From positions 7,520 to 71,519 of the forward strand of contig SVHM01000002.1 in NCBI GenBank assembly GCA_015055815.1: a stretch of 64,000 bases of DNA, given 5' to 3'. A model generated the notes under the pieces. That model was given only the letters and a program-made list of their open reading frames with translations, was not told where the DNA came from and ran no database searches. Source of the DNA: Clostridiales bacterium (lineage in GTDB: Bacteria > Bacillota > Clostridia > Christensenellales > UBA1242). This document shows, one piece after another, positions 8,093 to 42,167 of the stretch. Position 1 is the stretch's first letter; the number at the start of each line of letters is the position of its first letter. A program made the position numbers and the translations under genes.

Positions 8093-8126
8093 AAAAAATA
8101 CCCGTCCCTAAAATTAAAGCGACGGA
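8093..8126 (-). terminator. Intrinsic terminator after the HicB-like gene
   Basis: The minus-strand RNA reads CCGUCgC...GgGACGG, followed by GUAUUUUUUAU. Confidence 0.5.
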
Positions 8127-8143
8127 TATTTTGATAAAACTAA

Positions 8144-8422: not shown

Positions 8423-8503
8423 AATCAACACTCGTATATATAATTTATTCCATATTTTTTAAGATTTTAACATATATTTTCTTAAATGTAAAATTTTTTA
8501 TCA

Positions 8504-9508: not shown

Positions 9509-9570
9509 TTGTCACCTCATTATATTTAGATTAACATAAAATAATATTATCATCAAACAAAATATGACAA

Positions 9571-9607
9571 AAAAATAAAAACCACATGACTACGTATGTC
9601 ATATGGT
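9571..9607 (-). terminator. Intrinsic terminator after the 92-aa gene
   Basis: The minus-strand RNA forms a 10 bp stem (accauaugac / gucauguggu, with one G-U pair) and a 7 nt loop. It is followed by UUUUAUUUUU (plus-strand A-run 9571-9580). Confidence 0.65.
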
Positions 9608-9614
9608 TAATTAT

Positions 9615-9893
9615 TTACATTTCTGTTGCTAATTCTGGAACTATCATAGTAGCCGTTTCACTCTCAATTTGAGTAGGAACGATACCAATTTCTCTAGCCT
9701 TATTCAAAATTGATTCTTTTAGGTTTTCTGGAACGATTTGTTTCAAAACCTTTTGACCATTTTCATTTGTCGCAATATAAAAATTTTCACTTACTTTAGC
9801 AATATCTTTTTTATCATTATTTACTAATTCTTGACAAAAACTAGACACTCTGCTAATATATTTTTCCTTTTCATTACTTGTCATTTGGTCCAT
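9615..9893 (-). CDS. Hypothetical small protein (92 aa)
   Basis: The ORF has a strong SD (AAGGAG) before the ATG at 9893. It is flanked by its own promoter-like and terminator signals. I do not recognise a family. Confidence 0.6.
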   Translation of the reverse strand: MDQMTSNEKEKYISRVSSFCQELVNNDKKDIAKVSENFYIATNENGQKVLKQIVPENLKESILNKAREIGIVPTQIESETATMIVPELATEM

Positions 9894-17936: not shown

Positions 17937-17969
17937 GAAAAAACTGCCAATTATTTCTAATTGACAGTT
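17937..17969 (-). terminator. Intrinsic terminator after the 8022-aa gene
   Basis: The minus-strand RNA forms the stem aacugucaauua / uaauuggcaguu (one G-U pair) with the loop GAAA, followed by UUUUUU. It lies 25 nt after the stop at 17994. Confidence 0.65.
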
Positions 17970-17993
17970 TTTAGTTGAAAATAATTAGATTTT

Positions 17994-20900
17994 TTAGGAA
18001 AGCGGACTTAAAGAATATGCACTTTCCCGAATAGTAGGTTGAGTATTGAAACTTATTAAATAGTCTCTATATCCATCTCCAGTCTTATCCGTCAAGCCAT
18101 CCTTCTTAAACCAAATATTTACGCAATTTTTTTCACCATTTTCGTCTAATGCCACACATGTTGCATCGGCAATACTATCAGAGCCTCTAAATGTGATATC
18201 TAAAGACGATGTATACCAAGAATCTTGATAGAACAAACCATTACCTTGATATTTAGATATATCTATCCACTCAGTAACATTAAGCCATGCATCCTCGTTT
18301 GCCATTTTTAAAGCCCTGCCAATACTAAAACCACAATTATCAAACATTGCGTCATCACTACTTGCCAAATAACACACTTTATATATTTGTATTTTGTAAC
18401 TATCGTCCTTATCTTTATTTTTCAACCAATCATACATAAATGTGTATGTTTTTTGACATGCAGCCGAGCCGTCAACTTCTAATCTTTCACCAGAAGAATT
18501 AAAAATATTTCCAGTATTCTCACCTTCATAATATTGATTACCAGGATTTCCATCACCAATAATTCCACCAACAATTGCTTCACCTACAAGATAAGTAACT
18601 CCATAATACTTGTTATCACTTAAACCTACTGCATTATATTGCAAAAACCTGTAAATACCATTTGAAGCATCATTTCTCCAGTCGCCTTCATTAGTTGACA
18701 TTAAAGCACTTCCCGCCTGACCAATCATTCCACCAACAGTATATCCTTCAATTTGCTGATCTTTATTAGTTTGACTAGCTCCGACTTGACATTTATAGAA
18801 ATTCATTACACTACCATGTGTATCTGGAGCAACTTCTCCAATTATACCACCTGCAATATGGTTGTCTTCCTTTGTAGTAAGTCCAGCTTTAATTAATCGT
18901 GAATTAACTTGAATATTAATAAAATCTATTCTATTAAATGCAGATGTCCAACCAATAACACCACCACAAGCACCATTGTTTGAATAAATACTTGAATCAA
19001 TAATTATTGCATCTTCACTATCACCGAACTGAGCATATCCATACCCCAAACTATGAGTTCCTATTTCTTGAGTTAATGTTTTCTTACCCTCTTTATCATA
19101 TGTCATAGCATTATTCTTCATTTCGTCTGTCAAGTTTTTATAGCTATTATCTAACTTGCCAATTAAACCACCTGCAAACGAACCACCTCTAATAGTGCCC
19201 GATGAAATCGTTGTTTGACGAATTACAATTGAAGAGTATTCAGAATGCCCTATTACACCACCAGCAATCTCTGTACCCTCAATAACACCTGTTATTTCCG
19301 ATGGAGAACTACTTGCTTGATGTCCAATAGTTATAGAATTCCTTTCTAGTATTCCAACATGTCCACCTGATATGTTAGAATACATTCTAGTATTAACATC
19401 AACATTTACAATAGTTAACGCTGATCTTTCACACAAATAACCTGCAATTCCACCAGCCGCTACTCGAGCAGTAATATTACTTGAAATTGTAGTATCTTTG
19501 ATTGAAGATACAGTTGCTTGTTGTAAATCACCAAATAGTCCACCAACATAAGTCACCTTATAATCATCATTTTCTACACTAGTCATAGATATTACACTGT
19601 TAATTTCTGACAACGTTATACTAACAATTTTTGTAATTAGTTTTCCAACCAATCCCCCAGCGTATGATGTGGTTTTATCTTTATTATTTACATTATATTT
19701 CTTATATGCTTCAATATAATCAACTCCAAGATAAATATCAGAAAGCTCTTCAATAAGAACAACTTGTCTGATAGTTAATTCACCAAATACACCACCAATA
19801 TTCATACCTGTCATAGTTGTAATATTCTCTGAGTAATTTTTATCAGCATATATTTTATGAAGTTTTTCACTATCATCAACATCTTTATTATTTATCATAC
19901 ATGACAATTCAGGCGATAAATTATTATCTAAAGCAACCCTTCCTATATATCCAGCTACAACATCTTCCGATTTAATATTTGCTTTAACATATGAATTATG
20001 AATAGAAATTCTTAAATGCTTTTTAGCATCACCTATAATACCACCTGCTAAATTTTTACCTTGAACAGAAGCATCAAGTACGGCAGTGTTACTAATATCG
20101 CTATAGCCACCATTATTGGTTTCATTTCCATCTTCGTCTGTTGGAATATAATTTATTGCAACAATACCACCAGCGATACCACTTTCATCTATATCTTCTG
20201 TATCACTGTCATCTTGCATTATAGCTGTAATAATTCCACTATTTTGACAATTATCAATGTTTGTATTTTCATACTCATTGACACCAATAATTCCACCGGC
20301 ATACTGCGTGTTTTCAGTAAAATCATCTTCTTCTAATTCATAATCGCCTACACTTCCAAAGTTTTTAGAATATTGAATCAACAATAAAGGATACTCATCT
20401 TTATTTTGATATTCTTCTCCTAAATACTCAACTTTGCCTATAATACCACCAGAAACGTTACCATTAATAATAGTATTGTTTTCATCATTTTCTGTAGAAT
20501 AATAGAAATTATTATCATTGTTTTGCTCTTGCAAACCATTAATCATATTTTCTAGAGTATAGTTATCATTACCCAATAATACCAATTCGCCAACTATACC
20601 ACCTGTTACTTTTCCACCTATTATTGAAGATTTGTTTATTATACAACCATCGTAAAAATATGAAGTCTCTATACATACATTACTATATAGTCTTCCAAAT
20701 GATCCACCAGCAATTAAGTTAATATTGCTTGTATTTGTATATTCTCCATCAGTTACAACATTAAACAATCTTATTATTGATGGATCAGCCGTATCTTCAC
20801 CTACTTGCCCAATTAAGCCCCCATATAATGCAATATTAGAACCTGTTGCTATTCCATGAATTGTAAGTTCAACAAGACGTCCTTCATTAGAAATTACTTT

Positions 20901-23900
20901 TGCAACAAGTCCACCATATATTCCATCAGTAGCCAAGTAATTGCCACTATGGATATTAACTGCTTGGTTATAACCTTTCTCCATATGAATATTAGATACA
21001 TTTATTGCTCCACTCACATATCCTATCATACCGTATAAATCAAATGTACCATAGTCACTTGAAGATACGGCTACATTTACAACTTCATCATTTTCAAAAG
21101 TATTAACTTCGCCATTACCTACAATCGTCAAGTTATTTATTGGATAGAAAGCACTTCCTAATGCATTAAGTGTATACTTGTCTCCACTTACTTTAGTGTA
21201 AATATTTGGCTTACCTGACAAATTAATTCTTACATTAATAGGAGTTACGTCTCTTGTATATCTCTTAGTTAAAGCAGTATATATTTTTTGATAGCTATCG
21301 CTATTTAATTCCATTTGGTTAGTACGTGAATTAAATTCTCCAATTTTATCATCATCCTGAGAAGAACTTGTATTATACTCTGCAGAACGTTGAGCACCAT
21401 CATCTCCATAATCGATCATTTCTAGTGCAACATTGTTCTCATTAATTCTATAATAATGCCATACACCAGACTCACTGTATAATTGTTTGATGTTTTCAAG
21501 TAGGTAAGATACTGCGTATGTAATACTAATATCACCATCTTCTTGGAACACATATTCAAAATTTTCATTTTGAACAATTTTCTTTAAACTCCTATATTGA
21601 GTATTTGCATAATGCTCATTCCAATTAATGTCTTCCATACAAATAATAGATAATTTCTCACTATTACCCGTTTTACCTTCCGCAAACCTTACAACTGTTT
21701 CGTCAAAGATTGAAGTAGTATTTAAGGCATCACCTACACCGAATTCAACAGAAATGTTGTTATCTTCACCCTCTTGCTCTGCAGTTGTTACTGCCATTTG
21801 AAGAATATCGTAAAGTTGCACCCCTTCTTCACTCACACTAATCTCTGCTACAAAATTAGCATCAGTATACCAGTTTTGGTTTGCATTAAATGATTTATCA
21901 TATTCAAGTTTGTATGCAATACCATTTGCTAGTTTTGTTCCACGTGATGAAGCTTCGAATATATTATAGTTCTTAGCATAACCAACAACACCACCGACAA
22001 ACACTTTATCATCGTTAATTTTTATCTTATTATTATTACTGTTTGCAAAATTAATGTCAATATTTTCTATTTCTTTAATAGCATCACTTACAGCATAACC
22101 AACTATTCCACCTGCATATCTATGTTCAGGGTGATTATGATTTGCAAGTGGGTTCACTTCAATACTTTCTGCTCTTACAGAAGCATTTTCAACATTACCG
22201 TCACTTATATAACCAACTATACCACCAGCAACACCTTTTTTAAACAATAATTTACTAGATGTTACTTTTGAATTTCTAACATTTGCATTTTGCAATTTAC
22301 CAACAATACCGCCAGAGTATTCGTTTCCAGTAATCTTACTAGATACACTATTATCAGATAGATTTACGCCACTTAAATTACCAGCTATACCACCAACATA
22401 TTGGTTAGCAACAATGCCGACAAAGTCTATACCTATTTTGTCACCTTCTACCACTTTATTTCCAGAAATAATTGGAGAAGATGAAGATATTGCAGTACCT
22501 GCACCACCGATGACACCACCGACATAGTTAAAGCTTGCAACATTGATTTGATTAATTGTTATGGTGTTATTAATAAAGTCTATATATTGACCATATTTAA
22601 CATATCCAACAAGTCCACCAACGTAATCGCCTGAAATACCAGTTTCATTAGAGATATTTACAGTTAACTTGTGGTTTTTGATTGTCATTTTGCTAGATGT
22701 GTTATCATTCCCCACAACATAAGAGTTATCAATATATCCATAACCACCAGCAACATAATATGAATTACCACTAGTAATAGTAATGTCTGAAGTAACTTCA
22801 GGAGAAGTCATACTATTATTTCCTGTAAATGTTCCAACATATCCAGCTATACCACCAAGATAAGATTTTCCAATAATACCTGTAATACTCTTATCTTCAT
22901 CTTCTAGAATATAAGCCTTTAACTTTAATGCATCTTCTTTTAAAGTTGCGACCTTTCCAATCAAACCACCAACATATGACGCAGTTTTGTATTGCATATT
23001 AAGGTCGATTTTTATTTCAGGATGAACATAATTATTTAAATTTTGAGCTTTTAACTGAATATAATCAGCATTACCTACAAGCCCACCAACAGCACCACTT
23101 TCACTGTTGTTATGAGATTTTAAAGTAATTGTTCCAACATTTATAGCATCAGTATTTAAAATTACATTTTTTGAGTAACCAATTAAGCCACCTACATTTG
23201 CGCCATAGTTATAACTTGTAACTTTCAAATTAACTTCGTTATCTAATATACTTACTTGTGCAGTAGGATTATTAAATACTGTAACTTGATTAATTTCAAT
23301 AGTTCCGTCTGAATATGCTACTATACTTCCAAAACTATTTCCAATATCCATATGAGACAATGCGTTTGCTTCTATCTCAGCCCTAGACAATTTAACATAA
23401 ATATTTTCAATGCGACCAATTATTCCAGAACTATATGTCGCAAATCCTGTTAAGAAACCTTCATAACGTAACTTTTTGAAAGTAACTTTTGTAGTATCGC
23501 TACTGCCTGTAATTCTACCAATCATACCACCGACATTAGATGATGGAACATAATTGTTTCTATTTAAACAAATTGTAGAATTTGATGTAATATTACCCAT
23601 ACACAATTCGTTAATATCTGTGTTTTCTACATCATTAGCAGTACCCAATGTATCTTTATCTACTTTCATAATTTGATCAGTTACTTCAAGTGTACCAACT
23701 ACTCCACCGATATTGCTACCAAAACCAGCAATTGTAACATCTTGAACTATGATATTTGTTATATTATTTATTGTTTCTTCGCCAACTTTATAGTTGTCTT
23801 TATCAACATTGTATTTATATCCAATTACTGTATCTTTGGCATATCCAACAAGAGCACCAACATTTTCACTCTTATTTAATATATATCCACCACTTAATAC

Positions 23901-26900
23901 TGGAGTGTTATCAGAATTACCTATAATCGTAGCATTTTGAGTATAACCAAATAAACCAGTACTTCCCTTTAAGTCATTATCATTATCTAAATACTTACCG
24001 CTGAAATAACCAACAGAATTTATATTAGAAATAGTCTTTCCATTAAAGTCGAACGTTCCCATAAATGGATGTTGTTCTTCAATATTTTCATTTTCAAATA
24101 GTATATATCCAATAGATTTAAATATCTTACCACCAAGGTCAATATTATTATTTAGTTTAATGGTTATTCCTGCAAATGTAATATTGGAATTTACTTGTTC
24201 AGCTATCCATGCCAAATGCTTTGGATTTTCTATAATATAAACGCCCGCTTCATTAGTTGGAGCTTCACTTTCCCAACACTCAGTCAATACTGATAGAACT
24301 GGGTAGTTATTATTTTTACCAGATACTCTTGACCAAGGTATTAACCATGAATCGTAGAATAAGATATTGTCAAATGCTCGTAATTCTATACCTGATATTT
24401 TGTTAATTTCATTAGCATTAAAAGGTTCACTAGTAGCTGTATTAACTGCCATGTAAACTGTATTATATGTAACACTACTGCTATTTGTAAAGACTTTTTC
24501 ACTATAAGGCAAGTATGCATTTGTAATTTTTACAGATACAATTTCATTTTCTTTAGTATTTACAAAACCAGCATTATGAGTTGCATAAATTGGATAATAG
24601 TACCAACCAACACCGCCAGAATATGAGTTTGTTATATCTCCAGCCATTTCTTTAAAATATGTATACTTATCTAAGTCTCCACGTGAGATATATGCATTTA
24701 AGATTTCTACACTCTTATCAGTGTAACCTATCAATCCTGAAGCATATGCACCATCATCAATTCCTTCAACTGAAGAAGCATTGTAACACTCAGATAATTT
24801 GATAGCTGTTCTTTCAGCATATCCTACAATACCACCGGCAAAACTTCCAGCAGATATATTGGTTTCGTTGAACGATTTTGAAAGTGTAAGTTTTGAACTT
24901 TCAATTTTTCCTATAATACCACCAGCGGTAGATTTTGCAACGAATTTTTTTGTTATATCTTTTTCATCACTTGCTAATGACGGATCATCTAGTTTATCTA
25001 GCATGTATACCCTGTTGATATTAACAGTATTTACACCATTAATATAGCCGACTGCACCACCAAGTATATCAATATCTCCAAGCATATAACAATCTATAGC
25101 TGAGTTATTGATATCTAGTCTTGTAGCATTTGACATGTATCCAACAAGTGTACCAACGCTATTTTCTATGTCATTATGATTAGCTATTAGTAGTCTTGCG
25201 TTAGAAATATTAACGTTTTCGATATATAAGTCGCCAATTTGATTTGCAACTAATATTGCACCATCACCATTATTTGAATAAACAAATACATTTTCAAAGT
25301 TTACATTTTTAATTGAATTCATTTGTGAGTTGCCGAATATTCCCGCAAATGTATCATTTAGAATTGTAATATTTTTAATTGTATGTCCGTGTCCGTCAAA
25401 TTTTCCTTTGAATGTAGTAATTTCGTTACCAGTTCTCTTACCACCAATTGGAGTTAAGATTTTACCACGCATGTCAATGTCTTCTTCTATATAAACTGTG
25501 TAACCATCAAATGACATTCCTTCATTAACAAGTCTTATAAAGTATGCAAAACCTATATCATCTCTAATATTAAATGTTTTATTAATGGAATTAATTCTTA
25601 TGTGATCAATTAATGAAACATGAGAAGTTGGAAGAGGAACTCTTTCTAAATATTCACTAGGTATATTGTCTTCAATATATTTATTAACATAATTATTCCA
25701 TGAATAATTTGCATAGTCTGTTTGATTAGCAGAGTAAATATTCATGTCATCAATGAACCAACCACCGCATTCTTCCTTAATCATCCATTTTAGCATTGGA
25801 TAACCAGCATTACCAAATGTTGAGCCGGAATTTGTAGTCCCACCAACGAATACAATCCAGTCATTATAGAAATCAAATTCGTAAGACGACTTGGTAAATT
25901 GTATCAAATCATCTGCTGTTGCAGTCAATACAAAACTGTTATTTTCATCTCTTCTAATAGTTGCCATTAACATTGTTCCATTATTGTCATAATAAGCAAT
26001 TCCATTATTAGTATTGACCATACAATTTATTAAATTTGCATTTGCTTGTGAAATTTCGTTTAATATAATATCGGATAATTCAATAGTTCCATTTCCACTC
26101 TCGTTAAATATATTTGCCTTATTATTAATATTCGCATACGTTATCAACCCATCATTCTTTCCATATAAGTTACCGACATTTAAGTTAGTTAAAGATGGAT
26201 GCAAATCAATACTACTATTTAACTGAATGTAATACCCATTATCTATATTACCATTAATTGAACTTCCACTAATCTTACCATTGTTAGTACCAATAATCGT
26301 TGAAGTAACATTGCCATTTATTGACATTCCATATACTCTAGATAATTTGTCAACTTTAGTGATTGTTGCTATACAATTATTGAAGTAAATATCGTTATTA
26401 TCTAAACTTCCATTTGAAACTTCTAATGAAATACTCATGCTTGTATTAGTAATTATATAACTCTTGCCACTAACAAGCCTCAATTTATTACTTACAGCAT
26501 TAGTAGATGAAAGTTGTATTGGATTTAATCTAGCACTATTATAATTATAATTATCAGTATCACTTATAAATATTTTTAAATTTGGGAATACATTGTTATC
26601 TGTGTCTGTATTTCCCGCCCACTTACTTCCAAATGCAGAATAAATATTATTACCACCATCATCTTCATGGTCATACAACATATCTTGAACAGATAATGGT
26701 GTACCAATTTGATTAGTCTTTAACATAAATTCTGACAAGTAATAAACATTTTCGATTTCAGATAGCAAGTCATAAATATCTACTTGACCATTAGTCATTA
26801 ATTTTGCATTACCAATAATTCCACCCATTTGACTATTTGGGTCAGTATTATTAGCACATACAATATTTGCAATAGAATAACTTGTATTTAATTTTATTTT

Positions 26901-29900
26901 ATCTACATAGTCTTTGTTTGAAATCTCTACTCTTCCTATAATTCCACCCAATGAATTATATAGTGAAGAAATTTCACTATGTTGTAAAGTTCCATTTTCA
27001 GCATAAACTTCATAGCAAACTTCAATTGTATTAGAAGTATAACAGTCTACAATGTTTACACCATTATTTACAAATCCAATCATACCACCAATATTTGCAT
27101 TGATTTGTTCATTTTCTCTAGGTTCACTACGTGAAACATTTAGCTTAATGCTTCCATCAGCAAATGACTGGCTAATTGTTTTCATGTTATCGGTATTACT
27201 ATAATTATTTAAGTAACCTACAAGTCCACCAGCATTGATATTTAATGATGATTGGTCATCCGCTACAATTTCTAATGTTCCATTATAATAAGAATTATTT
27301 ACGGCAGTATCAGTAGCCTTTCCTATAAATCCACCAACATTTAATTGAGTAGAGTCTCCAATGTTAGTAGTAACTTTAATAATATTAGAAACTGCTTTTG
27401 TGTAAGTTCCACAATTTGTTGAACCAAACACACCACCAACGTTAATAATAGCATTGTCTTTTTCTGTAATACTAGTAGTTAACATAGGAATATTAGCAAC
27501 ATTGACAGGTGCAGGAATTGTATTATGACCTACACCGCTAAGTATAGCACCTACTGTACCTGCAATATTTATTGTAGAATGAGTTTTATTCATGCTCGAC
27601 ATGTGTGATTTGTCGTTATCATGAGTAATCTCACCCATGCCACAATAATAGCTTAATCCGTCACCAAATTGTAAATCACCATTGAAGTTTGTACCAATTA
27701 ATCCAGCATAACCACCGATACCAGCAATACCAGAATTAATTATGTTACTTGATACATATACAGATTTGTTATTATACTTAAACTTGCTTAATTTTACATT
27801 AATATTATTTATGTTAAACTTAGTTGTAGTAATTTCGTTTTGTTTACCTTCAACAATTCCAAATACACCACCAACGCCTAACATTTCATAAGAAACTTTG
27901 CTATCGCTTAGAGCTTCTAATTTAACATCTAATATTGATGTAGGAGTTGTTATATTTTCGTCTATAGATATATTATTTATTTCTGAGTCATCAAAACCAA
28001 TAACTTTACCAAACAATGAACCAACGGCTATTGTATCATAAAGTTCATTTTCGCCATAAGCTATATCAACTTTTATGTTTTGATTTGTAATTGTAACAGT
28101 ATCTAATCCTTTACCAACAGCAATTGAGCCATATCCACAAATACCACCAACATATAATGACAAGTTATTAATACCTGTGATATCTTTTTCTGAGTTTGTG
28201 TTATCTACGTCACCAACAACTATAGTTGGATTTGTTATTGTTAATTCGGAAATTTCTAAGCTTTCTGCATAACCACCAACAACACCTATGTATGATGCTG
28301 AGTTTTTAGCAATTATTTTCTTGCCACTAGTAAATGTAATTGAAACATCTTTAATCTTATTAGTAGCAAATCCCCTTGAATAAGCATAACCAAATATTAC
28401 GCCACCAGCAGAATTAATACCGCTATTAACTTCTATGTCGCCATCAACAACAAAATTAATACCTTCAATTGTTGCACCTTTAATTGCTGAGAATAAGCCT
28501 ACGTTATTACCTGCCATACCTTTAATCGTAATAGTAGTTGCAGTACCTTTTTTCAAAGTACCAGTAAATGGATTACCAGTTGAAAGTAAAGGTAAAGATA
28601 CTTTATCACTTGGAATAGCAATATTTTGATCTAATATGAATGTACCATAAGGATATTCATATACTTTTAACAAGTCTTCTGCTGTATTAACATGAATGAT
28701 TGGTTCTGTTAATTCCATTTCAAATACTGGGAATATTGGATTTTGTTTAGTAGTATCATCAGAAGCATCTACTTTGTAATATCCCCAAACTGACGATCTC
28801 CAGAAGCTATCATTGAAAATATCTTGCGATGTTGCATTTCTTTGAGCAATTAATCCAGTTGAATATGTTCCATCACTAGTTGAAATTGTAATATCTTTAA
28901 TTTCTTGTGTTTCGCCCTTTGATACTGTATCTGTATCTGTACCATTCTTAATAGCATTAAGAATTTTAATAGCATTAGCATGATTATATGTTTTACCTAG
29001 AATTTCTTGTAAAGTTCTACTTGAAGAATATGTTCCAAGTCTAGAGAAATGAGCAACATCATCAATTGCTATAGCATTTCCGTTTACACTTAATGTTATA
29101 TAATTACCACTAAATACGTTACCTATATTACTAGCTATTACAACTGGAGTTGCAGTTGTATTGTTATTTGCAGTTGAAATAGTGGTTATATATTTGCCAT
29201 TTTCAATATTGGTATTAGAAATACCAGGTGCTGTAGTTGATATATTACCTATTTCACCAATAAGTTCAAATTTATCAAAACTATCACTTGAAGAAGAAGC
29301 AAGACTTTCGTTAATTGAATTAAATGTATATGCAGTAATTGTATACATGTCTTCTTTTAACATTCTACTATTAAAATCATTAACATGAATGATATTAAGA
29401 TCTTTATCGTCACCTTCTACATTTTTGCAATTTACCCAGTAACCGACAAGACTTCCGATATTTGCAAAATCATCTGATTTATTAACAACATATCTATCTA
29501 TATTCAAATGCTCTTTCTTCCAGATATTAGAAGCAACAATTGATGTCATGCTTAGAGATGGAGCATCTGCATCATTAAAGAATTTTTTGTAGTTACTATT
29601 TGCATCTATCTCACTATCTTCAATAAACAACTTAAACATTGGTATTTGTTCAGTTTGTACAGTGTCAAAGTTTTCAGCATAATTAGTATTGATACCAATT
29701 ATACCACCGACACCATAATATGCATAAACATCACTAGTAGTATAAACGGTAGATAGTTCACCACCAATATTAGCACCAATAATTCCACCAGCATACATCG
29801 AATTAATATTTATTACATTCACCCTATTGTAACAATTTTCAATTCTACCTTCTTGGTTTAGACCAACCAAACCACCAATGAAATGAGCATTAGCAGAGAA

Positions 29901-32900
29901 GAATGTATCACTACCAGTATTAGAAATTTTATCTCCGAATACTTGAGTGTTATTTTTATTTGATGCAATATTCTTTATGTTTTTATCAACTGTGTCTTGA
30001 GTAATTTGTTCGTTTGCCACATAACTTCTAGCGATTACACCTTTGTTCATTCCCACAAGTCCACCAGCAATTCTTGTAGCACGTAATGTTGAATTTGTAG
30101 CAACACTTACGCTATTTTGACTGATGAATGTTTTGTTTCCCGCATAACCAAACAATCCACCAACAATTTGACCAGTAATAATTGCTGTACCTTGTAATTT
30201 ATTTCCCCTTACATTAGCAATACTATTTACATCAAAGTCTTGTATAGTTGTATCTATTTGGCTCAAGTCTAATATACCAGCGATACCACCCGCATATGAA
30301 ACTTTTGAGAAATTTGAATATTCATCATTAGGAGTTGTATTTTTAGGAATATAAACATTGTACTCTGAGATATATGTAATATATGGATTTTTTGCAGAGA
30401 ATGAGTTCTCTTTTACACTATCATTATTAGATGTAGCAGATACCCCACTTGTTACATTAACAAGACTGCTACTGCCAGAAACTCTACCTACAACGCCACC
30501 AACTGCGTTTAATCCATAAACTACTACGTTACTATTTCCAGAAACATTAATATTAAATAAATTACTATCGATTACTTGTCCAGCAAGCGCACCTACAAAG
30601 TTTACGCCCGTTCCATACATTTCGTTTACAACAATGTTTACATTTTTTACAACAGCCTTTCCAGTTATCTTTGCAAATAAACCTAAGCTTGTTGCATTTT
30701 GAAGAAGTATTACTTTTGAGTTGTTGTTATCAATTTTATAGTTAATATTTGTAACTTCATTTCCATTCAGAGTAAGTTTAGTAGTATCTACATTATAAGT
30801 AGTTCCGTCAATATTTACTTGACCTGAAGTAATTGAAATTTCACGAAGAATAATTTTATCATCTTCTTCATAAGTTTTAGCCAATTGTTTTGCAATAGCA
30901 TTATCGGTCTTTGTAGCATCAGCATTGATATTAACATTGTTAATAGTCATACCATTTCCATCAAAGATACCTTTGTAATTAACGTTATATGTAATTGCTG
31001 AAACGGCATTACCCGGTGTTCCAAATTCAATATCTGATACAAGTCTCATCTTTTTATTTGAAACTAAATTATTTCTTTCAGTAAGGCTGATATTGTTATT
31101 ACCAAGCTCTAATACATAATTATTATAATCATTAGAGTTTTTGATTAAATATGGATTAAATACGCTTTCGCCATATCTAATTAAAGATATATTTTGATTT
31201 GCTGTAGATTCTGATGTAGGTACAGACCAGCTAGTTTTATCTTCATATTCATATGTATTAGTTGTATCAACTGGAACTGAATTTTTAGATTTATCAATAA
31301 AGTTGATATTATATCTAATTGTTCCACCTGTAATTTTATTACTTATAGCAGATTTAATATCATTAACAAGTATTTCGTAAGTACTTTGAGTATTTCCTTC
31401 TTGAATTTCTGTATTTGTAGCAGTAGTATAATTATCTGTACTTAAATACATATTTACTTGAACAACATAGTTTGTTGTATTTTCACCAGTCTCACTTGAA
31501 GTAACACTTGAAGTAACACCAACCATAATATTCTTTCTATCAATATCACTTCCAAATTTGTTCATGATATTGTGTGTTAGCATTAATTCATAAACACATT
31601 CTTTTACATCTATTGATTTACTATTAATGCTTGTTTTAAAGCTATATGTCATTAAGTTTGCAGAAACCAATTGTGGTACACCAGAAGGATAATTAATATT
31701 TCTGAAATTATCTCTACTTTCACTACCTGTTGGATAATACCAAACACTTGATGCTATAGTATTAATATTTGTTGAGAAATCACTATTGAATGCAAAAGTC
31801 TCAAAAGTATTTACAATGCCAAATTGATTAAGTGAAATAGCGTTTGCTACTTGATTTTGGCTTTCGTAATTGTTGTATTCATCAATGAAAGTATTACTGT
31901 CGCCAGTTGCACTTCCTGCAAATTCAATATCTGTATTTAGTACTTTCAAGTAGTATGAATTAGTGATTGTTCCGTCATTGAAGTTATCTTCACCCTTTAA
32001 TGCTAAGAATGGGCTACCATCTTTCACTACACTACTTAACGAATATGTATTATTAATAGTTCCAGAGTTTTTAAATGCGAAACCTGTAGTAACATTACCT
32101 GAAACCATAAAGTTTGCATAGCTATCACTAATAATACCTGCATTTTTGTATACAAATGATGAAGCATTACCGTTTGCAGAAATAACGGCAGTTGACATCT
32201 TTCTCATGTCTTTATAGTCATATGAACTATTTCCACGATCATCATACAAACTATCATTATTAATTACATAATTATAGCCATTAAAACCAGTCAAACTAGT
32301 TAGTCCAGTTAAGTTAACATGTTCTGTGTTATTACTATTATAGAAATGTCCGCCAGATGTATAACTATAAAGAATTTTACCATTGTTGTTATATACAAAT
32401 CCTGAAGCACCAACATCTTCCGACTTAGCAGTTAATGCAACAACGTTACCACCGTCATAATAACAACTTGAAATGGTATTATTGTTGTCTACAACAAATC
32501 CAGCAACATTGTCTCTACCCTTAATAGTTACATTATTGATATTACTATTTGTAATATATCCATTGTTTTCAGCAACTAAACCACCAATTTTGTAACTACC
32601 AGTTAAAGAATAATCTAAACCAAAGTAAACATTGACAGATGCAAGTTTTCTAATACTTTGAGTATTTTCATTATTATCGGTTTCTTGTAAAATTCTTTGT
32701 CTATTGTTTCTATAATCTTTAGCATTACTTGTAATTGTTACATTTGTAATTATACCATTGTTTATTGGTGTCAATATACCAAATTTAACATTTGAATAAT
32801 TGCCAGCTGAAATTTGCAAATCACCTAACGCTTCAATTGCCGAATCGGTATATTCGAAACCTATATCATCACCTTGATCGTTTTTCCTATTTTCACAAGG

Positions 32901-35900
32901 AATTTCAATTACAACGTTTTTAATAATTGAATCACTGTAAATTTGAGAGAATATTCCAAGATTTAAATCTTCTGCTTTATCTTCGATAGAAGTATTTTTA
33001 GTAGTATCATAGAATGATTTTAATTTAATTACATATCCATTACCATCAAAAGATTTAATATCTTCATCAAGTGGAACCCAGTTTTCTAAAGTAATATCAT
33101 TCATAAGAATATAGTGTGAATTTTCTCCACCAACCATATTTTTGAATTGATCAACAGAATATATAGGCTCTGGATTTACTTCTGTATTAAGTCTAACAAA
33201 ACTTAAAGTGAACGCTGTTATTTTTTCAAATGAATAACCATCAGATACAATTTTGTTTTCTACTCCACCACCATCTTTCGTATAACTATATGCAATTCTT
33301 GCAAGTAATGTACTAGCAGAATTAATTCTTGTATTTCTTATAATCAAATAATCAGATGAATCTTCATTATCAGTTATTTCAAAATCTGGATAAGGATCTC
33401 CAACATTAAGAGGAATATGAACATTATTTTGTAGATAGTAGAATGACTGTGCATCCTTTTTAGAAAGAGCATCAGCAAAATTCTTGATTTGATTGCTAAG
33501 TGCATAATTGTTTAATTGGTCATAATCTTTATCATACGTAGCTTCAATGTCTAGGCGTAAATCATATGGCTGATTAAATATACCCAACATTTGACCATTT
33601 GTAACATATTTTACATTTATTTTATCAATTATATATGGTGCCAAAATAAACTTGATTTCGTCGCTATCTGTATAATATTTACCATTAATTGTTGATGTAA
33701 TTGTTGCAGTCAAAGTAAATGTTTTTCCAATATAGCTTGAATATTCAACACCGATGTCATTTGCACTCTTTACATCTAAATAGAATTTGCCATTTTCATA
33801 TCTTGGTTCAGTATTTTTAAATATTGTGTTTAGACTTGAAATCGAATTATTTTGACCTAAATTTTCAACCAACTTCCATGTAATTGAATTTTTATTGTCT
33901 GTTTTTGCATCAATTACAAGCGGATGATTAAATGTAGCAACAGCTCTTTCTTCTAGTCCATTAACAGAAATATCAATACTTGGACTATTCTTTGTGACGA
34001 TATAAATAGAATTTCCACCAACCCTTGTAGAAGTTCCATTTGCTTCGTTTACATAGAATGAATAAGTAATAAGGAAGCCATCAACATTACTTGGAATTGT
34101 ATTTTGAATATTTGTTCTAACATAGAATGAGCCATCAAATACATTTTTTCCACCGTCTATTATGCTGACTTTTTCAAGGACTAGTCTATTTTCTCCGCTT
34201 ACAGTATTGTAAAGGGATGAATAACTTGTAACTTGACTACCAGTATAGTTAGCAACCATTTGTTCAAATGCAATATATGTATTACCAACTTTTGTAGATT
34301 CAATTACTACATAGTCTACACTTGCGTATTTAGGATAAATATTAAGTCTCAAAAGTCCTGGATAGCCACTAACCAAAGCATTAGCTACATAATAATTGTT
34401 TGCATCATATGTTTTATCAAAATCGCCATCTTCAGAACCATCAGGTTTATATGCATAATGAATACTTGATTCATTGAAACTTTGCTTTAAGATATTAACT
34501 GTAGTAACAGTATCCAAAGTTTTATCTTCTGGACCACCGTTAACTTTATCAACTTTGAATGTTAAGTTGTAACTTTGAATCAAATCGGTAGATAATTTTT
34601 CATTTTCTCTAACACCAATCATAAATGTGTAAATAATTTTCTTCTCAGTATTGTCATATGGGCTACTATGAAGTTTAATAAACATTTTATCAAATTCATG
34701 AGTTGTTCCATTTGTTACAAACTCAAATCCATTAAACACATTACCATTATGGTTATTTTTGATATCAAGAGTTACTTTCTCATTGCTATTATCTGTATAT
34801 ACAATAACATCAAAGAATGAAGTTACATCTGGCTCAAATTCAACTTTACTATCACTTGAAATTGAAGTTGCGCCAATTAAAGTTTTAACTTTAAACGATG
34901 CTGTAAATGTTGTTTCAGTGTTATTATTGATAATCTTTACTTGTTCACCATTTTTCCAATAAAGTGTAGCAGAAATTGTTGGAATTGCTGTTCCATAACT
35001 ACCTGCAGAAAGTTTAACTGAATTGGATGAAGTATATGGATAAGTTGTTATATTATCAATTTTAACTGTTGGATAACCTTCTTTGTTTTCAGCTTTTAAA
35101 TAAGAATATTTAACTTCAAAGTCATTATCTATAACTAGATAGATAGGAGCACAATCGCTATCAAAACCTAACGTTCCCCTATCGCTATCAGATAAAATAT
35201 ATGCATATTCAGGAACAATTTCAACGTTATATTTATCATTTAGAAGTAAGTTTACTATACTTTCAGATGTTAATTTATTTTCTTCTCTAATCTCACCATT
35301 ATACAAATTAAATGTATTAACTGGAGATATAACATTTAATTTAATTGTCGCATAGTTATTAGCATTATAAACAGAAGAAATTCTAATACTAATCTCACCA
35401 TTTCCGCAAGCTACAAAATATGGTTTGTTATTAACAATTTCAATGTAACCAACTTGTGGGTCGCTTGTTATAAATTTCAATGCACCATTTTGCAAGAAAG
35501 GTGGATAAATTGTAATGTTACAACAATCAAATAAATCATATCTATTTTTTTCTATTAACCAATTATCTAAATTAGCACTAAGATTTTTATCAAAATCATC
35601 GTACTCGCCATCACCCTTAAAGTCGATAACTTTTCTATAACCACCATATACAGGAATAGTAGTATATTTATATCTAGAATAATCTACTTGATAGTATTCA
35701 ACAGTAGCATTTGAAGTAGATGAAGATGCGATTGACTGCGCACTACTTTTTAAACTTTCGATAAAGTTTGCAACTTCAATTTCTTCATTATTTACTGATT
35801 TTTCTGATTGTTGCATAGTACTATTTGTTTTAGATATATTATCTGAAACTTTAGTCATACTAGCACCAATTGAATAAGAAACAGCTTCTCCTTGTAAAAC

Positions 35901-38900
35901 ATTCTCATTTTCTTCACTTGAAGTCGCTTGAGTTTGAGAAGCTCCACTACCAGTAGGAGTGGTAACTGTAGGAGCAAGATTTGTTACTAATTGAACATAT
36001 CTTGTACCGCCATATGTATAATATTTATCTTTGCCATAAGCAAGTGGTCTACCACCTAAAATAGACGAATGTCTAAATAATATATATTTATTAAGATTGT
36101 TAATACTATTAGAACTATCTTCACTAGCATTTATACCAGTGTCTGTAGTTGAAATATATAAAGAATTTAATTCAACTTCTGACTCTGTATTATCTGCGTC
36201 TGTAGTTGTATATTTCAAACTTTCCGAGCCATAATTTACATTATAGTATGTATAATCAATAGTTTCAAGCAGACTATTACTAGTTGCGCTGAATTTGATT
36301 GAGAATGGTTTGAAATAATAAGTTTTTAACTGTCCTGCAGTAGAATAACCAAATAAATTAGTAGCATATACATTTTCACTTACAGTCTTTGTAGATGAAA
36401 TATTAGAAATGTGTGCATTATTAACAGCTTCAATTGTCTCATTTATTGAACCATTACCATTATAGAAATTAATTTCTTGACCGGAAACAAATGACATATA
36501 TGCAATAATTGTTGACATTTTGAAGTATTGATTATCTAAATCTGTTACGACTGAATAATCTTTAACAGCCCCTTCACCGCTTCCGTCTGGGTCAAACCTA
36601 AAGTAAATTGGATTACTTCCATTTTTTAGTTCTCTATATTCTTCTCCAGCGAATTTCTCAATATCAGCAATTTCATTATGAGATGATAGTTTTGTTTCTT
36701 CGTTTTCTGTAATTCCATCCGATAATTTCATAGTTGAGAAACTATAAATCATATTACCAAATTTACCAGAAACTTTATCTTTATTTGGAAGAGTTATTTC
36801 AAATGAATATTGTAACGACCCAAATCCTGATGGTGTAGTTTCTGTATTAGTGCCACCTTCAGTTTCACCGTCACCAGTTTCACCTTCTCCCGACTCTTCT
36901 TCAGTCACACTTGCAGTTGAATTTGATCCATGAACAAATCCATAACTATTAAGTGTTGGAAGAACTCCAGATGGAGTTGAGCCAGCAGAAACTTCAATAT
37001 AAGCAACGCCTTGTCCACCATTTGTGGTATTTGAAGCAATAAACAATATATGTCTAGTTGTTGTTTTTGATGGGTCTTCTTCATCTTCAGCGATATATTT
37101 ATTAAGTTCAGAAGCATCTCCAATAAATCCGCCAACTGTATCAGCTGTAGCACAAGTAATTGTACTGCTATTATTATAAATAGTTCCATCAACTGTTGTA
37201 CCTACAATACTAATAACACCTTTGGCTTTTCCAATTAAACCACCAACATATGCACGATATGTGTCTTGTATAACTTCATGAACAAATGCAATTTTTACAT
37301 TAACAAATGATGAATATATAAAGCCACCATTCATTTGACCAATCATTCCACCAACATATCTATTTCTATTTAGTGAACTATCAGCCATTTTAACTACAAT
37401 ATCACCATAGTAGTCATCATTTAACCCCAAATGAGCATCTACTTTATCTGCTACATGAGAATTAAAATATCCATTAGTTGTTACATTTTTTGAATAGTAA
37501 CCATGAACAGAATTATGAGCAAGTATATCACTAAATTCAACTGTACCTGCATTATAATTTACAGCAATATCATCAGATGTATATTCACCGATTAAACCAC
37601 CGATTTTGTCATATGCATAAATACCAGTATTTAAATATGATGCGATAACATCTTCAAATTCAATAAATTCTACTTTATTTCCTAATATTGTTGAACCTGC
37701 AGTAGCAGTACCTACAAGACCACCAACTTTTTCATTTCCAATAAGTGTAGGAACTACTAACAAGCCTTCAATTCTAGCATTATTTACACCAACAGCACCA
37801 CCAATATTATCACTTCCATAAATAAACACTCTAGCAACAATATCTTTCATACTTCCAGAATATGTATTGGTTGTGATAATAGTTTCTTCTCCATCAGTAG
37901 TTTCAGTAACTTCAACTAAATTAGTATTTTTACCAACAATTCCACCATAGTAGTTAGTTCTACTGTACTCTTTATCTTGGCTAACATTAATAAATGTAAC
38001 AACATCAAAAGAGTTTAGATTGTCAGTAACATAGAAATTACTATTATTTGAATATATCCTTCCGCCCCTATTTTCACCAGCAATTCCACCGACAAATATA
38101 TTAGCAGTTGCTTCTGCATTTTGATTATCTACAATTTCAAATTTTAATTTTGCTACACAATTTTGAACGATAGATTTGTTAGCAATAGAAACATCGTCAG
38201 TTGTATAAAGATTTAATCCTACAATTCCACCAATATTTGAATTAACAGTATGACCATCTGCAAATACTGAAGAAATTGAATAATAAATTCCATATGACAT
38301 CTCATTAACAGAAGAAACAGAATTGTTTGTTAAAATTTGATTAGTTAGAGTGCAAATAACCTTACAGTTTCTAATAATACCAGCATTTGTACCTGCTAAC
38401 ACGCCTACATTTTCTTTAAGAACAATAGTTTGTGAACTTGTTGATGTATAAGATGATACTCTAACTATCGGATCTACAATAGTAATATTTTCTATATGTC
38501 CTTTTGCTCCAATTTTTGCAAATAATCCATAGTTTACATCTTTCTCAACAGCCAAGGCGTCTTTGCTCATATTATAAGAAATATTTAGACCATAAATTGA
38601 ATAATTTGCTCCTTCAGTAGAAGCAAGCTTACCAGTAAATTCTACATCAGTATCATCAGCCTTATAACCCAATGGCATCCAAGGTGATGTAAGTGTTATA
38701 TCGTTGACAATTTCGTAATTTAAAGACAATCCTTCATCAGTGTCATAAATTTTCTTTAAATCTTCTTCATTGGCAACTTTATATGGAATACCCCTTCCAT
38801 TCTCAACAACAATAGTAAGAATTTTATAATAAGTATATTTGCTAATTTTATCACTGAAAGACTCGTTTCCACTATTAGTGAATTCTTCTTTTAATGCACT

Positions 38901-42062: not shown

Positions 42063-42138
42063 AATTTTTCCCTCTATAATTATATTTTGATAATAAATAA
42101 AAATTATTATTATATAATAATAAAATTATACATTAATA

Positions 42139-42167
42139 ATTATATATAAAACATCCCAACTAGTCAA
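42139..42167 (-). promoter_or_regulatory. Sigma-A type promoter of the 8022-aa gene
   Basis: On the minus strand, TTGACT (42167..42162) is followed by a 17 nt spacer, then TATAAT (42144..42139). The leader is about 70 nt. Confidence 0.55.

What the first reader, a model, noticed from the sequence alone, without database searches (positions are those of the whole stretch)
18550..38800. The 8022-aa protein is a concatenation of about seven complete adhesin-like cassettes with conserved entry and exit motifs
A three-part unit recurs along the protein. (i) The entry module has the form xPxxIx(T/S)xE(D/E)(L/F)...Y.L.NDI.L..W.P(I/L)...F.G.(F/L)DGNG..I.N(L/V). Examples are NPEPIYSVDQFKNMVGGENSHYILMNDITLENWVPLDEDIKSFDGNGYVIKLKSF and GVYIIENPKHLAWIAEQV...NNNIDLGGKIFKSIG...FMGTFDFNGKTISNINS. 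(ii) A run of GGxxG turns follows. (iii) The exit motif has an aromatic residue plus YP.L or FP.F, as in VWYYPTG..NYPSGVPQLV, QNPIFPVFEME, NAGYPMLKWM and NNNYPVLSVL. Hand-anchored codons place FDGNGY at 33033-33050, FDGNGM at 30948-30965, FDGHGH at 25383-25400 and FDFNGK at 24036-24053. Approximate cassette spans on the minus strand are C1 38800-36900, C2 33185-31660, C3 31160-28690, C4 28700-25760, C5 25580-24265, C6 24245-21860 and C7 21170-18550. Non-GLUG beta-rich spacers lie at 42062-38800 and 36900-33190. The repeats are diverged at DNA level, because the same motif uses different codons in different cassettes. This argues for old duplications rather than assembly artefacts or recent recombination.
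Basis: seen in the sequence. Interest (0 to 1): 0.75.

Follow-up and report, generated by a model that had tools for sequence, protein, structure and literature searches.

The report
Giant surface protein of chained beta-helix domains

Summary
All four hand-anchored motif coordinates are exact. GGxxG turns occur 54 times against 0.7 expected, and all lie inside the proposed cassettes.

A profile of the entry module finds six significant copies, starting at aa 1087, 2958, 3635, 4449, 5490 and 5936, with no decoy hits. The seventh cassette has only a degenerate entry (profile-profile P=2.6e-4). A canonical exit (helix...F.F...W...YPxL) is alignable at five places. One of these closes an extra 260-aa module (C4b). 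C1, C6 and C7 lack a canonical exit.

AlphaFold models of C5 and C4 give confident right-handed beta-helices that start at the entry module. Their best structural and sequence matches are BACOVA_03286 (3n6z) and the N-terminal beta-helix of M26 IgA1 proteases.

The entry module occurs in more than 120,000 representative proteins. These include giants with 8-20 verified cassettes and many single-cassette lipoproteins.

The duplications are old. There are no long DNA repeats, C1-C3 are collinear with the neighbouring 5021-aa paralog, and the C5/C6 order is kept across species.

The most likely function is an N-terminally lipid-anchored adhesive fibre; this is inferred, not shown. Verdict: a new member of a known kind, of modest interest.

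The parts
17994..42062 (-). Giant gene, 8022 aa
   Evidence: Single ORF. The only hydrophobic segment is N-terminal. No LPXTG tail and no HExxH.
41991..42062 (-). Signal peptide with lipobox (aa 1-24, ...VTAC|G)
   Evidence: Read from the sequence. Hydropathy peak at aa 3-27 only. Lipoprotein status is inferred from the motif.
38805..41990 (-). N-terminal non-GLUG region (aa 25-1086), presumed stalk
   Evidence: No GGxxG, no Pfam or NCBIfam match, no internal BLAST repeats. Fold not determined.
36900..38804 (-). Cassette C1 (aa 1087-1721): entry at 38451-38804, 9 GGxxG, no canonical exit
   Evidence: Entry iE 1.6e-14. Entry is most similar to C2 (37 bits) and to paralog cassette B1 (33 bits).
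33192..36899 (-). Spacer (aa 1722-2957), non-GLUG, unassigned
   Evidence: No GGxxG. No Pfam hit.
31659..33191 (-). Cassette C2 (aa 2958-3468): entry at 32889-33191, coils of N.G.I.N.Y type without GGxxG, exit at 31665-31862
   Evidence: Entry iE 1.4e-8. 32-36% identical over about 440 aa to paralog aa 2628-3054. Exit alignable but not detected by the external exit HMM.
28707..31160 (-). Cassette C3 (aa 3635-4452): entry at 30807-31160, 7 GGxxG, exit at 28713-28862
   Evidence: Entry iE 1.3e-6. Collinear with paralog aa 3142-3586. Exit HMM 7.8 bits.
26553..28706 (-). Cassette C4 (aa 4453-5170): entry at 28419-28718, 7 GGxxG, exit at 26568-26717
   Evidence: Entry iE 1.4e-8. AlphaFold beta-helix is confident from aa ~4450 to ~5100. 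Best PDB matches are IgA1 proteases 6xja/6xjb, prob 0.97-0.99.
25773..26552 (-). Module C4b (aa 5171-5430): no entry, no GGxxG, own exit at 25782-25940
   Evidence: Conserved at 28-33% in six orthologs. Not significantly like the cassette profile (hhalign E 0.018-0.28). Exit HMM 8.3-9.2 bits. AlphaFold confidence is low.
24264..25595 (-). Cassette C5 (aa 5490-5933): entry at 25269-25595, 3 GGxxG, exit at 24285-24443
   Evidence: AlphaFold pLDDT >90 over aa ~5485-5795, a right-handed beta-helix. Foldseek top hit 3n6z, E 2.3e-4. Exit HMM 13.3 bits.
21861..24257 (-). Cassette C6 (aa 5936-6734): entry at 23910-24257, 13 GGxxG, no canonical exit
   Evidence: Entry iE 2.4e-24. Closest internal relative is C5 (37% identity, E 1e-5).
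18513..21185 (-). Cassette C7 (aa 6960-7850): degenerate entry at 20973-21167, 15 GGxxG, no exit
   Evidence: hhalign of the ortholog profile against the entry profile gives P=2.6e-4. The ortholog in L029 has a significant entry at the matching place (iE 1e-6).
17997..18512 (-). C-terminal region (aa 7851-8022), lineage-specific
   Evidence: No BLAST match to the C-termini of 25 orthologous giants. No Pfam hit.
42139..42167 (-). Promoter-like site upstream of the giant gene
   Evidence: 11 of 12 consensus matches. Consensus match only.
17939..17972 (-). Terminator-like hairpin after the stop codon
   Evidence: 15-bp stem plus T-run. Consensus match only.
42546..57611 (-). Neighbouring 5021-aa paralog with lipobox (FVAC) and the same cassette plan
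   Evidence: Entries at aa 1128, 2649 and 3165. Collinear at ~30% identity with C2-C3. 16 GGxxG against 0.3 expected. Own promoter-like and terminator-like sites.

Best explanation
The gene encodes a giant extracellular lipoprotein of an uncultured, low-GC gut Clostridia (Christensenellales-like) bacterium.

Proposed path (inferred): after Sec export and lipidation at Cys24, an N-terminal region of about 1060 aa with unassigned fold acts as a stalk. Beyond it lie seven right-handed parallel beta-helix rods of the GLUG type (C1-C7) and one small extra module (C4b). These are joined either directly (C3-C4, C5-C6) or through non-GLUG spacers.

Anatomy of each rod:
- It starts with an entry module of about 100 aa (short strand, helix, Y.L..DIDL, W.PIG, F.G.FDGxGxxIxNL, GLFG..I.N). 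This module forms the N-terminal cap and the first rungs.
- It continues with rungs carrying GGxxG / N.G.I.N.Y turns.
- In the canonical form it ends with an exit module (helix, F.F, W, YPxL). I infer that the exit caps the C-terminal end of the solenoid.

I infer that capping both ends lets each rod fold on its own and keeps solenoid ends from pairing with one another. That property would allow the unit to be copied many times in one chain.

The most likely role is a long adhesive or spacing fibre, of the order of 100 nm if extended. Its fast-diverging lateral faces would bind host, dietary or microbial surface ligands.

What is shown and what is inferred: the architecture and the fold are shown. 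The anchoring, the capping role of the exit module and the adhesive function are inferred.
For: Architecture:
- Six significant entry modules with no decoy hits.
- 54 GGxxG, confined to the cassettes.
- Five alignable exits.

Fold:
- AlphaFold gives a confident beta-helix for C5 (pLDDT >90 over ~310 residues) and for C4 (aa 4450-5100, starting at the entry module).
- Best Foldseek hits are 3n6z and IgA1 proteases 7uvl, 7uvk, 6xjb and 6xja.
- The entry profile hits 3n6z at E 3.6e-8. It hits the start of the IgA1P N-terminal beta-helix at E 0.08 (domain limits from PMC7695701).

Autonomy of the unit:
- Single-cassette lipoproteins of 430-830 aa exist.
- Exit motifs sit within 45 aa upstream of 22 of 92 entry modules, against a 3.3% background.

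Surface location:
- Lipobox and a single N-terminal hydrophobic segment, no other transmembrane segment, no LPXTG.
- Relatives of the cassette carry SLH, dockerin, T9SS-tail, choline-binding and Big domains.

Evolution:
- The giant is 25-29% identical between species whose RpoB is 92-95% identical and whose neighbouring non-core ORF is 47-52% identical.
- A giant GGxxG-rich gene sits upstream of rpoB in 25 of 50 related loci examined.
Against: - No experiment or ligand is known for any GLUG beta-helix outside IgA1 proteases, where the domain gates a protease active site rather than acting as an adhesin.
- The exit modules and C4b were modelled with low confidence (pLDDT <50), and no solved structure contains the exit by sequence. 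Its capping role is therefore unverified.
- C1, C6 and C7 lack a canonical exit, so a cap of this kind is not obligatory.
- 37% of the protein (N-terminal region, spacers, C-terminus) has no assignable fold or family.
- Lipoprotein status rests on a motif only.
Confidence: 0.6

Rival explanations
1. The beta-helix cassettes are enzymes rather than binders. The protein would be a chain of polysaccharide lyases, hydrolases or epimerases of the pectate-lyase fold, each acting on a different host or dietary glycan.
For: Below the IgA1-protease hits, the Foldseek lists are filled with pectate and alginate lyases, polygalacturonases, C-5 epimerase AlgE4 and phage tailspike depolymerases. A PDB sequence search gave a marginal pectinesterase hit (E 0.25).
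Against: Those matches have E 0.1-2 and TM 0.15-0.3, which is generic beta-helix similarity. No Pfam, NCBIfam or CAZyme-like family is matched. No conserved acidic or basic catalytic cluster stands out in the alignments: the nearly invariant columns are glycines and hydrophobic residues.
Confidence: 0.12
2. The giant protein is an antagonistic or cell-wall-acting device. The fibre would present a variable C-terminal effector, like polymorphic toxins or the giant proteins proposed to degrade prey cell walls.
For: C-termini differ between related species. In L028 and L029 the C-terminus is NlpC/P60-like (Pfam E 5e-5 and 1.4e-4). Giant proteins of other phyla have been linked to cell-wall degradation (bioRxiv 10.1101/2023.11.21.568195).
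Against: The window's own C-terminus has no Pfam hit and no His after its Cys motif. No small immunity-like ORF lies between the stop codon and rpoB. NlpC/P60 domains also serve the cell's own wall remodelling or anchoring.
Confidence: 0.1
3. The protein (with its 5021-aa paralog) is a structural coat or spacer layer. It would be a protective, antigenically variable envelope component shielding the cell from phage, IgA or bile, with no specific ligand.
For: Two tandem giant genes total about 39 kb, each with its own promoter-like site. The locus is kept next to rpoB in many species, with fast divergence.
Against: Nothing shows high abundance or lattice formation. Relatives with SLH or dockerin anchors look like appendages rather than lattice proteins.
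Confidence: 0.12
4. The internal periodicity is a compositional or assembly artefact, or the ORF is not a real gene.
For: The sequence has low GC, is rich in N, I, S and G, and comes from a metagenome.
Against: Decoys give no entry hits. Shuffles give 0.7 GGxxG against 54 observed. There are no long DNA repeats. The identical flanking rpoC is on 23 contigs. Collinear giants exist in 25 other genomes.
Confidence: 0.01

Closest known systems
GLUG-motif beta-helix domain (Pfam PF07581 Glug; C-terminal part of PF05342 Peptidase_M26_N). Structural prototypes: BACOVA_03286 (PDB 3n6z) and the N-terminal beta-helix of M26 IgA1 proteases (6xjb, 6xja, 7uvk)
   Same: The entry module is homologous (profile E 3.6e-8 to 3n6z; it maps to the start of the IgA1P beta-helix). 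The cassettes share the GGxxG rung motif and the right-handed beta-helix fold. In canonical relatives the entry module is what PF05342 positions 146-250 match.
   Different: There is no M26 catalytic domain, no HExxH, no G5 and no LPXTG. The window's copies are so diverged that Pfam Glug reaches only 16.8-22 bits. The exit module is in no Pfam model and matches no solved structure by sequence.
Multi-cassette GLUG giants from metagenomes (for example P0148, 7824 aa, 20 cassettes; P0147, 7338 aa, 18; P0182, 7822 aa, 12; P0221, 7830 aa, 8)
   Same: They have the same three-part cassette (entry, GGxxG rungs, W...YPxL exit) repeated many times in one chain of 5000-8000 aa.
   Different: Those proteins have more, shorter and more regular cassettes (about 330 aa period in P0148). 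They have other anchors (SLH in P0182) or other intervening domains (Flg_new or Ig-like). The window protein has fewer, longer, highly diverged cassettes, long unassigned spacers and a lipobox anchor.
Giant1-5 extracellular proteins of Apilactobacillus kunkeei (PMC12863079)
   Same: Both are tandem genes for 3000-8000 aa surface proteins in a small Firmicute genome. Both contain beta-solenoid domains, evolve fast and are presumed adhesins.
   Different: The Giants have one N-terminal SRRP-like beta-solenoid followed by alpha-helical or beta-sheet repeat rods and a C-terminal SH3b-like wall anchor. Here there are many GLUG solenoids and an N-terminal lipid anchor.
Beta-helical adhesins of Gram-negative bacteria: autotransporter passengers, TpsA/FhaB, and chlamydial Pmp proteins with GGA(I/L/V) and FxxN repeats (recalled from general knowledge, not tested)
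   Same: Long right-handed beta-helices carry short glycine-rich rung motifs and are used as surface adhesins. Ag43 (4kh3), Pet (4om9) and Hap (3syj) appear as weak Foldseek hits.
   Different: The window protein has no TPS domain and no beta-barrel translocator, and the host is a Firmicute (SpoIIID gene nearby). Those proteins form one continuous helix rather than a chain of separately capped helices.
Beta-solenoid binding region of serine-rich repeat proteins (L. reuteri SRRP, PDB 5nxk)
   Same: It is a right-handed beta-solenoid that binds glycans or epithelia. It appears as a weak Foldseek hit (E 0.2-0.45).
   Different: The window protein has no serine-rich repeats, no SecA2/Y2 context and no LPXTG, and shows no sequence similarity to SRRPs.

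Membership tests
GLUG beta-helix domain family (PF07581 / PF05342-C / 3n6z-like) | GLUG rung motif recognised by Pfam PF07581 | tested here: inconclusive
   One stretch (aa 4062-4083 of the protein) scores 22.0 bits when scanned in the C-terminal half (cut-off 20.5) and 16.8 bits when scanned in the N-terminal half. The motif GG[ILVMFA][ILVAFMT]G itself is 54 observed against 0.7 expected.
GLUG beta-helix domain family (PF07581 / PF05342-C / 3n6z-like) | N-terminal entry module homologous to that of solved members | tested here: met
   A profile of window and relative entry modules hits 3n6z residues 45-142 at E 3.6e-8 and IgA1P 6xja residues 113-203 at E 0.08. There are six significant copies in the protein.
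GLUG beta-helix domain family (PF07581 / PF05342-C / 3n6z-like) | Right-handed parallel beta-helix fold | tested here: met
   AlphaFold models of C5 and C4 are confident. The top Foldseek hits are 3n6z (E 2.3e-4, prob 1.0) and IgA1 proteases (prob 0.84-0.99). These are predictions, not structures.
GLUG beta-helix domain family (PF07581 / PF05342-C / 3n6z-like) | Homology of a whole cassette to many family members | tested here: met
   C5 alone gives 29 hits at 25-43% identity, many carrying PF07581. The cassette profile gives 1318 hits at E<=1e-5. The entry profile gives 120,292 representatives at E<=1e-3.
M26 IgA1-specific metalloprotease | Zinc-binding HExxH catalytic domain (Peptidase_M26_C) | tested here: not met
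   There is no HExxH anywhere in either giant protein and no Peptidase_M26 Pfam hit.
M26 IgA1-specific metalloprotease | LPXTG or N-terminal wall anchor and G5 domain | tested here: not met
   There is no C-terminal LPXTG and no G5 hit.
Type V secretion adhesins (autotransporter / TpsA) | TPS domain or C-terminal beta-barrel translocator | tested here: not met
   No such Pfam or NCBIfam match. The host is a sporulation-gene-bearing Firmicute.
Polymorphic toxin / contact-dependent inhibition proteins | Recognisable C-terminal toxin domain followed by an immunity gene | tested here: not met
   The window's C-terminus has no family hit. No plausible ORF lies between the stop codon and rpoB. The variable C-termini in relatives (NlpC/P60 in two) keep the idea alive for the locus as a whole.
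Bacterial lipoproteins (Lgt/Lsp pathway) | Signal peptide ending in a lipobox [LVI][ASTVI][GAS]C | tested here: met
   The N-terminus reads MKIWNKILSFVVLMFVTVCGVTAC|GK, and the paralog has ...GFVAC|GD. Only one hydrophobic segment is present. No dedicated predictor was available.
Serine-rich repeat adhesins | Serine-rich repeat regions, LPXTG anchor, accessory Sec locus | tested here: not met
   Composition is N/I/S/G-rich but without serine-rich repeat tracts (sequence). There is no LPXTG. The neighbours are rpoB and a paralog.

The most novel reading that the evidence does not exclude
The locus upstream of rpoB in this clade of gut Clostridia may be a dedicated hot spot for hyper-diverging giant fibres. 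In this reading the chain of individually capped GLUG solenoids is a modular scaffold: each cassette binds a different target, and the C-terminal tip is an exchangeable effector (NlpC/P60 in some species, an orphan domain here). That would make it a contact-dependent device for attacking or remodelling neighbouring cell walls rather than a passive adhesin. In addition, the exit module (helix-F.F-W-YPxL), which is unmodelled in Pfam and absent from the PDB by sequence, could be a new C-terminal solenoid cap that also serves as an inter-cassette joint.
Probability: 0.1. Interest if true: 0.6.

Novelty: new member of a known kind. Interest (0 to 1): 0.3.

Why it matters
The result gives a residue-level parse of a protein that standard annotation leaves blank: Pfam reports one marginal 22-residue hit in 8022 residues.

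It shows that the "entry" and "exit" motifs are the conserved ends of a domain present in more than 100,000 protein clusters, many from gut bacteria. Pfam models the entry only partly and the exit not at all, and no function is known outside IgA1 proteases. A proper family model of the whole cassette would improve annotation of very many giant surface proteins.

For this organism, the two tandem genes (39 kb) are probably its main surface appendages. They are therefore candidates for host or phage interaction. The architecture itself is ordinary for the family.

Tried and rejected
- Whole-protein BLASTP self-comparison returned only the identity hit. I replaced it with 250-aa fragments.
- jackhmmer from single exit motifs did not converge on the other exits and gave a spurious hit at aa 2519-2545. 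I replaced it with an exit HMM built from external proteins. That HMM reported nothing on the full-length protein and only weak scores on fragments.
- NCBIfam gave no hits. Pfam on the spacers, the N-terminal region and the C-terminus gave nothing credible.
- The exit profile found no solved structure; the top PDB hits are chance matches.
- C4b could not be shown to be a cassette (hhalign E 0.018-0.28) and could not be modelled.
- AlphaFold gave low confidence for both modelled exits.
- One alignment was too large for structure prediction and two alignment calls failed.
- The search for homologous proteins never returned proteins longer than about 1460 aa, nor the window protein itself. Full-length giant relatives came only from the representative library.
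- I considered a protease (no HExxH), a type V adhesin, a serine-rich repeat protein, an assembly artefact and a prophage tailspike (only generic beta-helix similarity, E>0.5), and rejected them.
- An Rfam scan of the window showed nothing in or around the gene.

Full report
**1. The gene**

The window holds one uninterrupted ORF on the minus strand, 17994..42062, of 8022 aa. It starts with a signal peptide ending in a lipobox (MKIWNKILSFVVLMFVTVCGVTAC|GK). This is the only strongly hydrophobic segment. There is no LPXTG tail and no HExxH motif.

Directly upstream lies a 5021-aa ORF (42546..57611, minus strand) with its own lipobox. Downstream are rpoB, rpoC, an unassigned 334-aa ORF, rpsG and two long ORFs I did not scan (692 and 400 aa). 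Further upstream are SpoIIID and an M23 peptidase.

Each giant gene has an 11/12 sigma-70-like site in front and a hairpin plus T-run behind. These are consensus matches only.

RpoB places the organism among uncultured low-GC gut and rumen Clostridia MAGs labelled Christensenella, Christensenellales or Clostridiales. The best match is 95%.

**2. Check of the observation**

- The four hand-anchored motifs are at exactly the stated coordinates.
- GG[ILVMFA][ILVAFMT]G occurs 54 times against 0.74 expected (max 3 in 200 shuffles). Every copy lies within the proposed cassette spans.
- Fragment-wise BLASTP shows real but weak internal similarity (25-37% identity, E down to 7e-7), confined to the cassette regions. 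Examples are C5 entry with C6 entry (37%, E 1e-5) and C1 entry with C2 entry (29%, E 5e-4).
- A jackhmmer profile seeded on the C5 entry was run over the two giants, 25 orthologous fragments, 29 database relatives and two decoys per sequence. It finds six significant entry modules at aa 1087, 2958, 3635, 4449, 5490 and 5936 (iE 1e-6 to 5e-33). No decoy scored at E<=10.
- At DNA level there are only 30-52 nt matches of 60-85% identity over the GGxxG-coding sites and no long repeats or tandem arrays. The copies are old and not an assembly artefact.

**3. Where the tidy picture fails**

*C7.* It has no significant entry (iE 3.8). Alignment with orthologs shows a conserved, divergent version (helix Y..lY.a..KRY, PIG-like, I.G.., YNLYG.IGY..g.i.i.NI). 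A profile-profile test against the entry alignment gives P=2.6e-4 and probability 42%, over the second half only. The L029 ortholog has a significant entry at the corresponding place.

*Exit motif.* The exit is part of a module of about 50 aa. An alignment of 21 external and 5 window exits has W and P invariant and the pattern T..qMk...F..WDF...W.i.....YP.L.

- In relatives, a strict [YFW]P.[LFIVM] lies within 45 aa upstream of 22 of 92 entry modules, against 3.3% of random 50-aa windows.
- 255 exit modules were found in the 296 relatives in hand.
- Inside the window protein, an exit HMM built only from external proteins scores 7.5-13.3 bits at aa 4411-4429, 5138-5172, 5406-5428 and 5854-5927. 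Between 1 and 5 of 4290 shuffled fragments reach as high. The HMM misses the C2 exit.
- C1, C6 and C7 have no canonical exit.

Residues 5171-5430 (C4b) form a separate module. It is conserved at 28-33% in six orthologs but is not significantly like the cassette profile.

The count is therefore six canonical cassettes, one with a degenerate entry, and one extra exit-bearing module. Together they cover 63% of the protein.

**4. What the cassette is**

C5 alone finds 29 database proteins (25-43% identity). Many are 430-830 aa lipoproteins that equal a single cassette, and several carry Pfam Glug.

| Model | Region | Result | Best PDB matches |
|---|---|---|---|
| AlphaFold C5 (38-sequence alignment) | aa 5434-5935 | pLDDT >90 over about 310 residues, as a right-handed beta-helix starting at the entry module | 3n6z, a putative IgA1 protease of Bacteroides ovatus (E 2.3e-4, prob 1.0), then IgA1 proteases 7uvl, 7uvk, 6xjb |
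| AlphaFold second model | aa 4400-5500 | Confident beta-helix from aa ~4450 (the C4 entry) to ~5100 | 6xja and 6xjb on top (prob 0.97-0.99) |

The entry profile hits 3n6z at E 3.6e-8. It hits the start of the IgA1P N-terminal beta-helix at E 0.08. In that enzyme the helix spans residues 781-1070 and gates the active site (PMC7695701).

In canonical relatives, Pfam sees the rungs as Glug and the entry as the last ~100 positions of Peptidase_M26_N. The exit is in no Pfam model and matches no solved structure by sequence.

Both models have low confidence for the exits and for C4b. The structural role of the exit as a C-terminal cap is therefore my inference.

**5. How common the architecture is**

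- The cassette profile finds 1318 proteins at E<=1e-5 among only 8000 scored candidates. Partner domains include SLH, dockerin, the T9SS tail, choline-binding repeats, Big_2/3, Flg_new and Peptidase_M26_N.
- The entry profile, run against 1.84 billion cluster representatives, finds 120,292 proteins at E<=1e-3 and 61,685 at E<=1e-10.
- The top 150 of these are 1570-7830 aa with 5-23 matched stretches.
- I verified 18, 20, 12 and 8 full entry modules in P0147, P0148, P0182 and P0221. In P0148 and P0182 most entries are preceded by an exit of the W...YP.[FL] type; in P0147 and P0221 other domains lie in between.

Chains of capped GLUG solenoids are thus a widespread design. The window protein is a diverged, long-cassette example.

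**6. Age of the duplications**

Entry-module scores pair C2 with paralog B2 (67 bits) and C3 with B3 (49). C1 pairs with C2 (37) and with B1 (33), and C5 pairs with C6 (39). The two giants are collinear over C2-C3 at about 30% identity. The C1-C3 array therefore predates the gene duplication.

In orthologs from other species, successive entry modules are best hits to C5 and then to C6, in that order. This holds in L004, L005, L008, L019, L021, L023, L024, L029, L033, L034 and L079. The C5/C6 split therefore predates species whose RpoB is only 73-95% identical.

**7. The locus in relatives**

Of 50 related loci with upstream sequence, 25 have an open frame of more than 2700 aa (usually running off the 10-kb flank) directly upstream of rpoB, with 8-53 GGxxG.

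| Protein compared between species | Identity |
|---|---|
| RpoB | 92-95% |
| RpoC | 89-92% |
| S7 | 90-94% |
| Unassigned 334-aa neighbour | 47-52% |
| Giant protein (collinear over up to 2800 aa) | 25-29% |

The giant evolves much faster than core proteins, and faster than a non-core neighbour.

The last ~420 aa have no match among the orthologs. C-termini differ between species, and L028 and L029 end in an NlpC/P60-like domain.

**8. Mechanism (inferred)**

The protein is exported and lipid-anchored at its N-terminus. The unassigned ~1060-aa N-terminal region presumably carries the rest through and beyond the wall. The solenoid rods give a stiff, long reach. About 4500 residues sit in beta-helix; at an assumed ~23 residues and 4.8 Å per rung (textbook values, not measured here), that is of the order of 100 nm.

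Entry and exit modules cap each rod, so each can fold alone. This would explain why the same unit exists singly and in chains of up to 20.

The fast-changing lateral faces are the likely ligand-binding or antigenic surfaces. One functional screen reported a GLUG-domain protein from infant gut DNA as an NF-kB activator (PMC8480279). This hints at host interaction but does not concern this protein.

Rivals are an enzyme array, an antagonistic device with a variable C-terminal effector, and a protective coat. They are scored separately in this report.

**9. Verdict**

The thing itself is a new, diverged member of a very large, poorly characterised but known domain family.

Noticed in passing
window 42546-57611 (-): A second giant gene (5021 aa) has a lipobox signal and the same plan: three significant entry modules (aa 1128, 2649, 3165), a weak fourth near aa 3885 preceded by an exit-like motif, and 16 GGxxG. 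It is collinear at ~30% identity with C2-C3 of the 8022-aa protein. The two genes occupy 39 kb.
   Followed up: partly
loci L004-L079, positions ~1-9700 (upstream of rpoB at 10001): 25 of 50 related MAG loci carry a GGxxG-rich open frame of more than 2700 aa directly upstream of rpoB. The position is conserved while the protein is only 22-29% identical over the long collinear alignments.
   Followed up: partly
L028 and L029, last ~120 codons of the giant ORF; window 17997-18360: The C-termini of the giants are not conserved between species. Two relatives end in an NlpC/P60-like domain (Pfam E 5e-5 and 1.4e-4). The window protein has a look-alike Cys motif (MFDNCGFSIGRAL) but no downstream His and no Pfam hit.
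   Followed up: partly
window 25773-26552 (-), aa 5171-5430: Module C4b is a conserved 260-aa unit with N.G.I-type turns and its own canonical exit, but no entry module. It is not significantly similar to the cassette profile. A look-alike stretch (by eye only) is at aa ~4500-4700 of the 5021-aa paralog.
   Followed up: partly
window 42075-42146: An AT-rich imperfect tandem repeat (periods 22-30) sits just upstream of the giant gene's start codon and overlaps the 11/12 promoter-like site at 42139-42167.
   Followed up: no
window 8504-9508 (-): A 334-aa ORF lies downstream of rpoC, between rpoC and the rpsG/692-aa/400-aa gene group, and has no Pfam match. It is present in relatives at only 47-52% identity, and a HicB-like antitoxin gene is next to it in locus L001.
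   Followed up: no
window 63908-63982 (+): Rfam calls a tRNA here (46.8 bits), but ARAGORN reports no tRNA in the window.
   Followed up: no
window 38805-41990 and 33192-36899 (-): About 2300 aa of the giant protein (the N-terminal region and the C1-C2 spacer) match no Pfam or NCBIfam family and show no internal repeats by BLAST. Their fold is unknown.
   Followed up: partly
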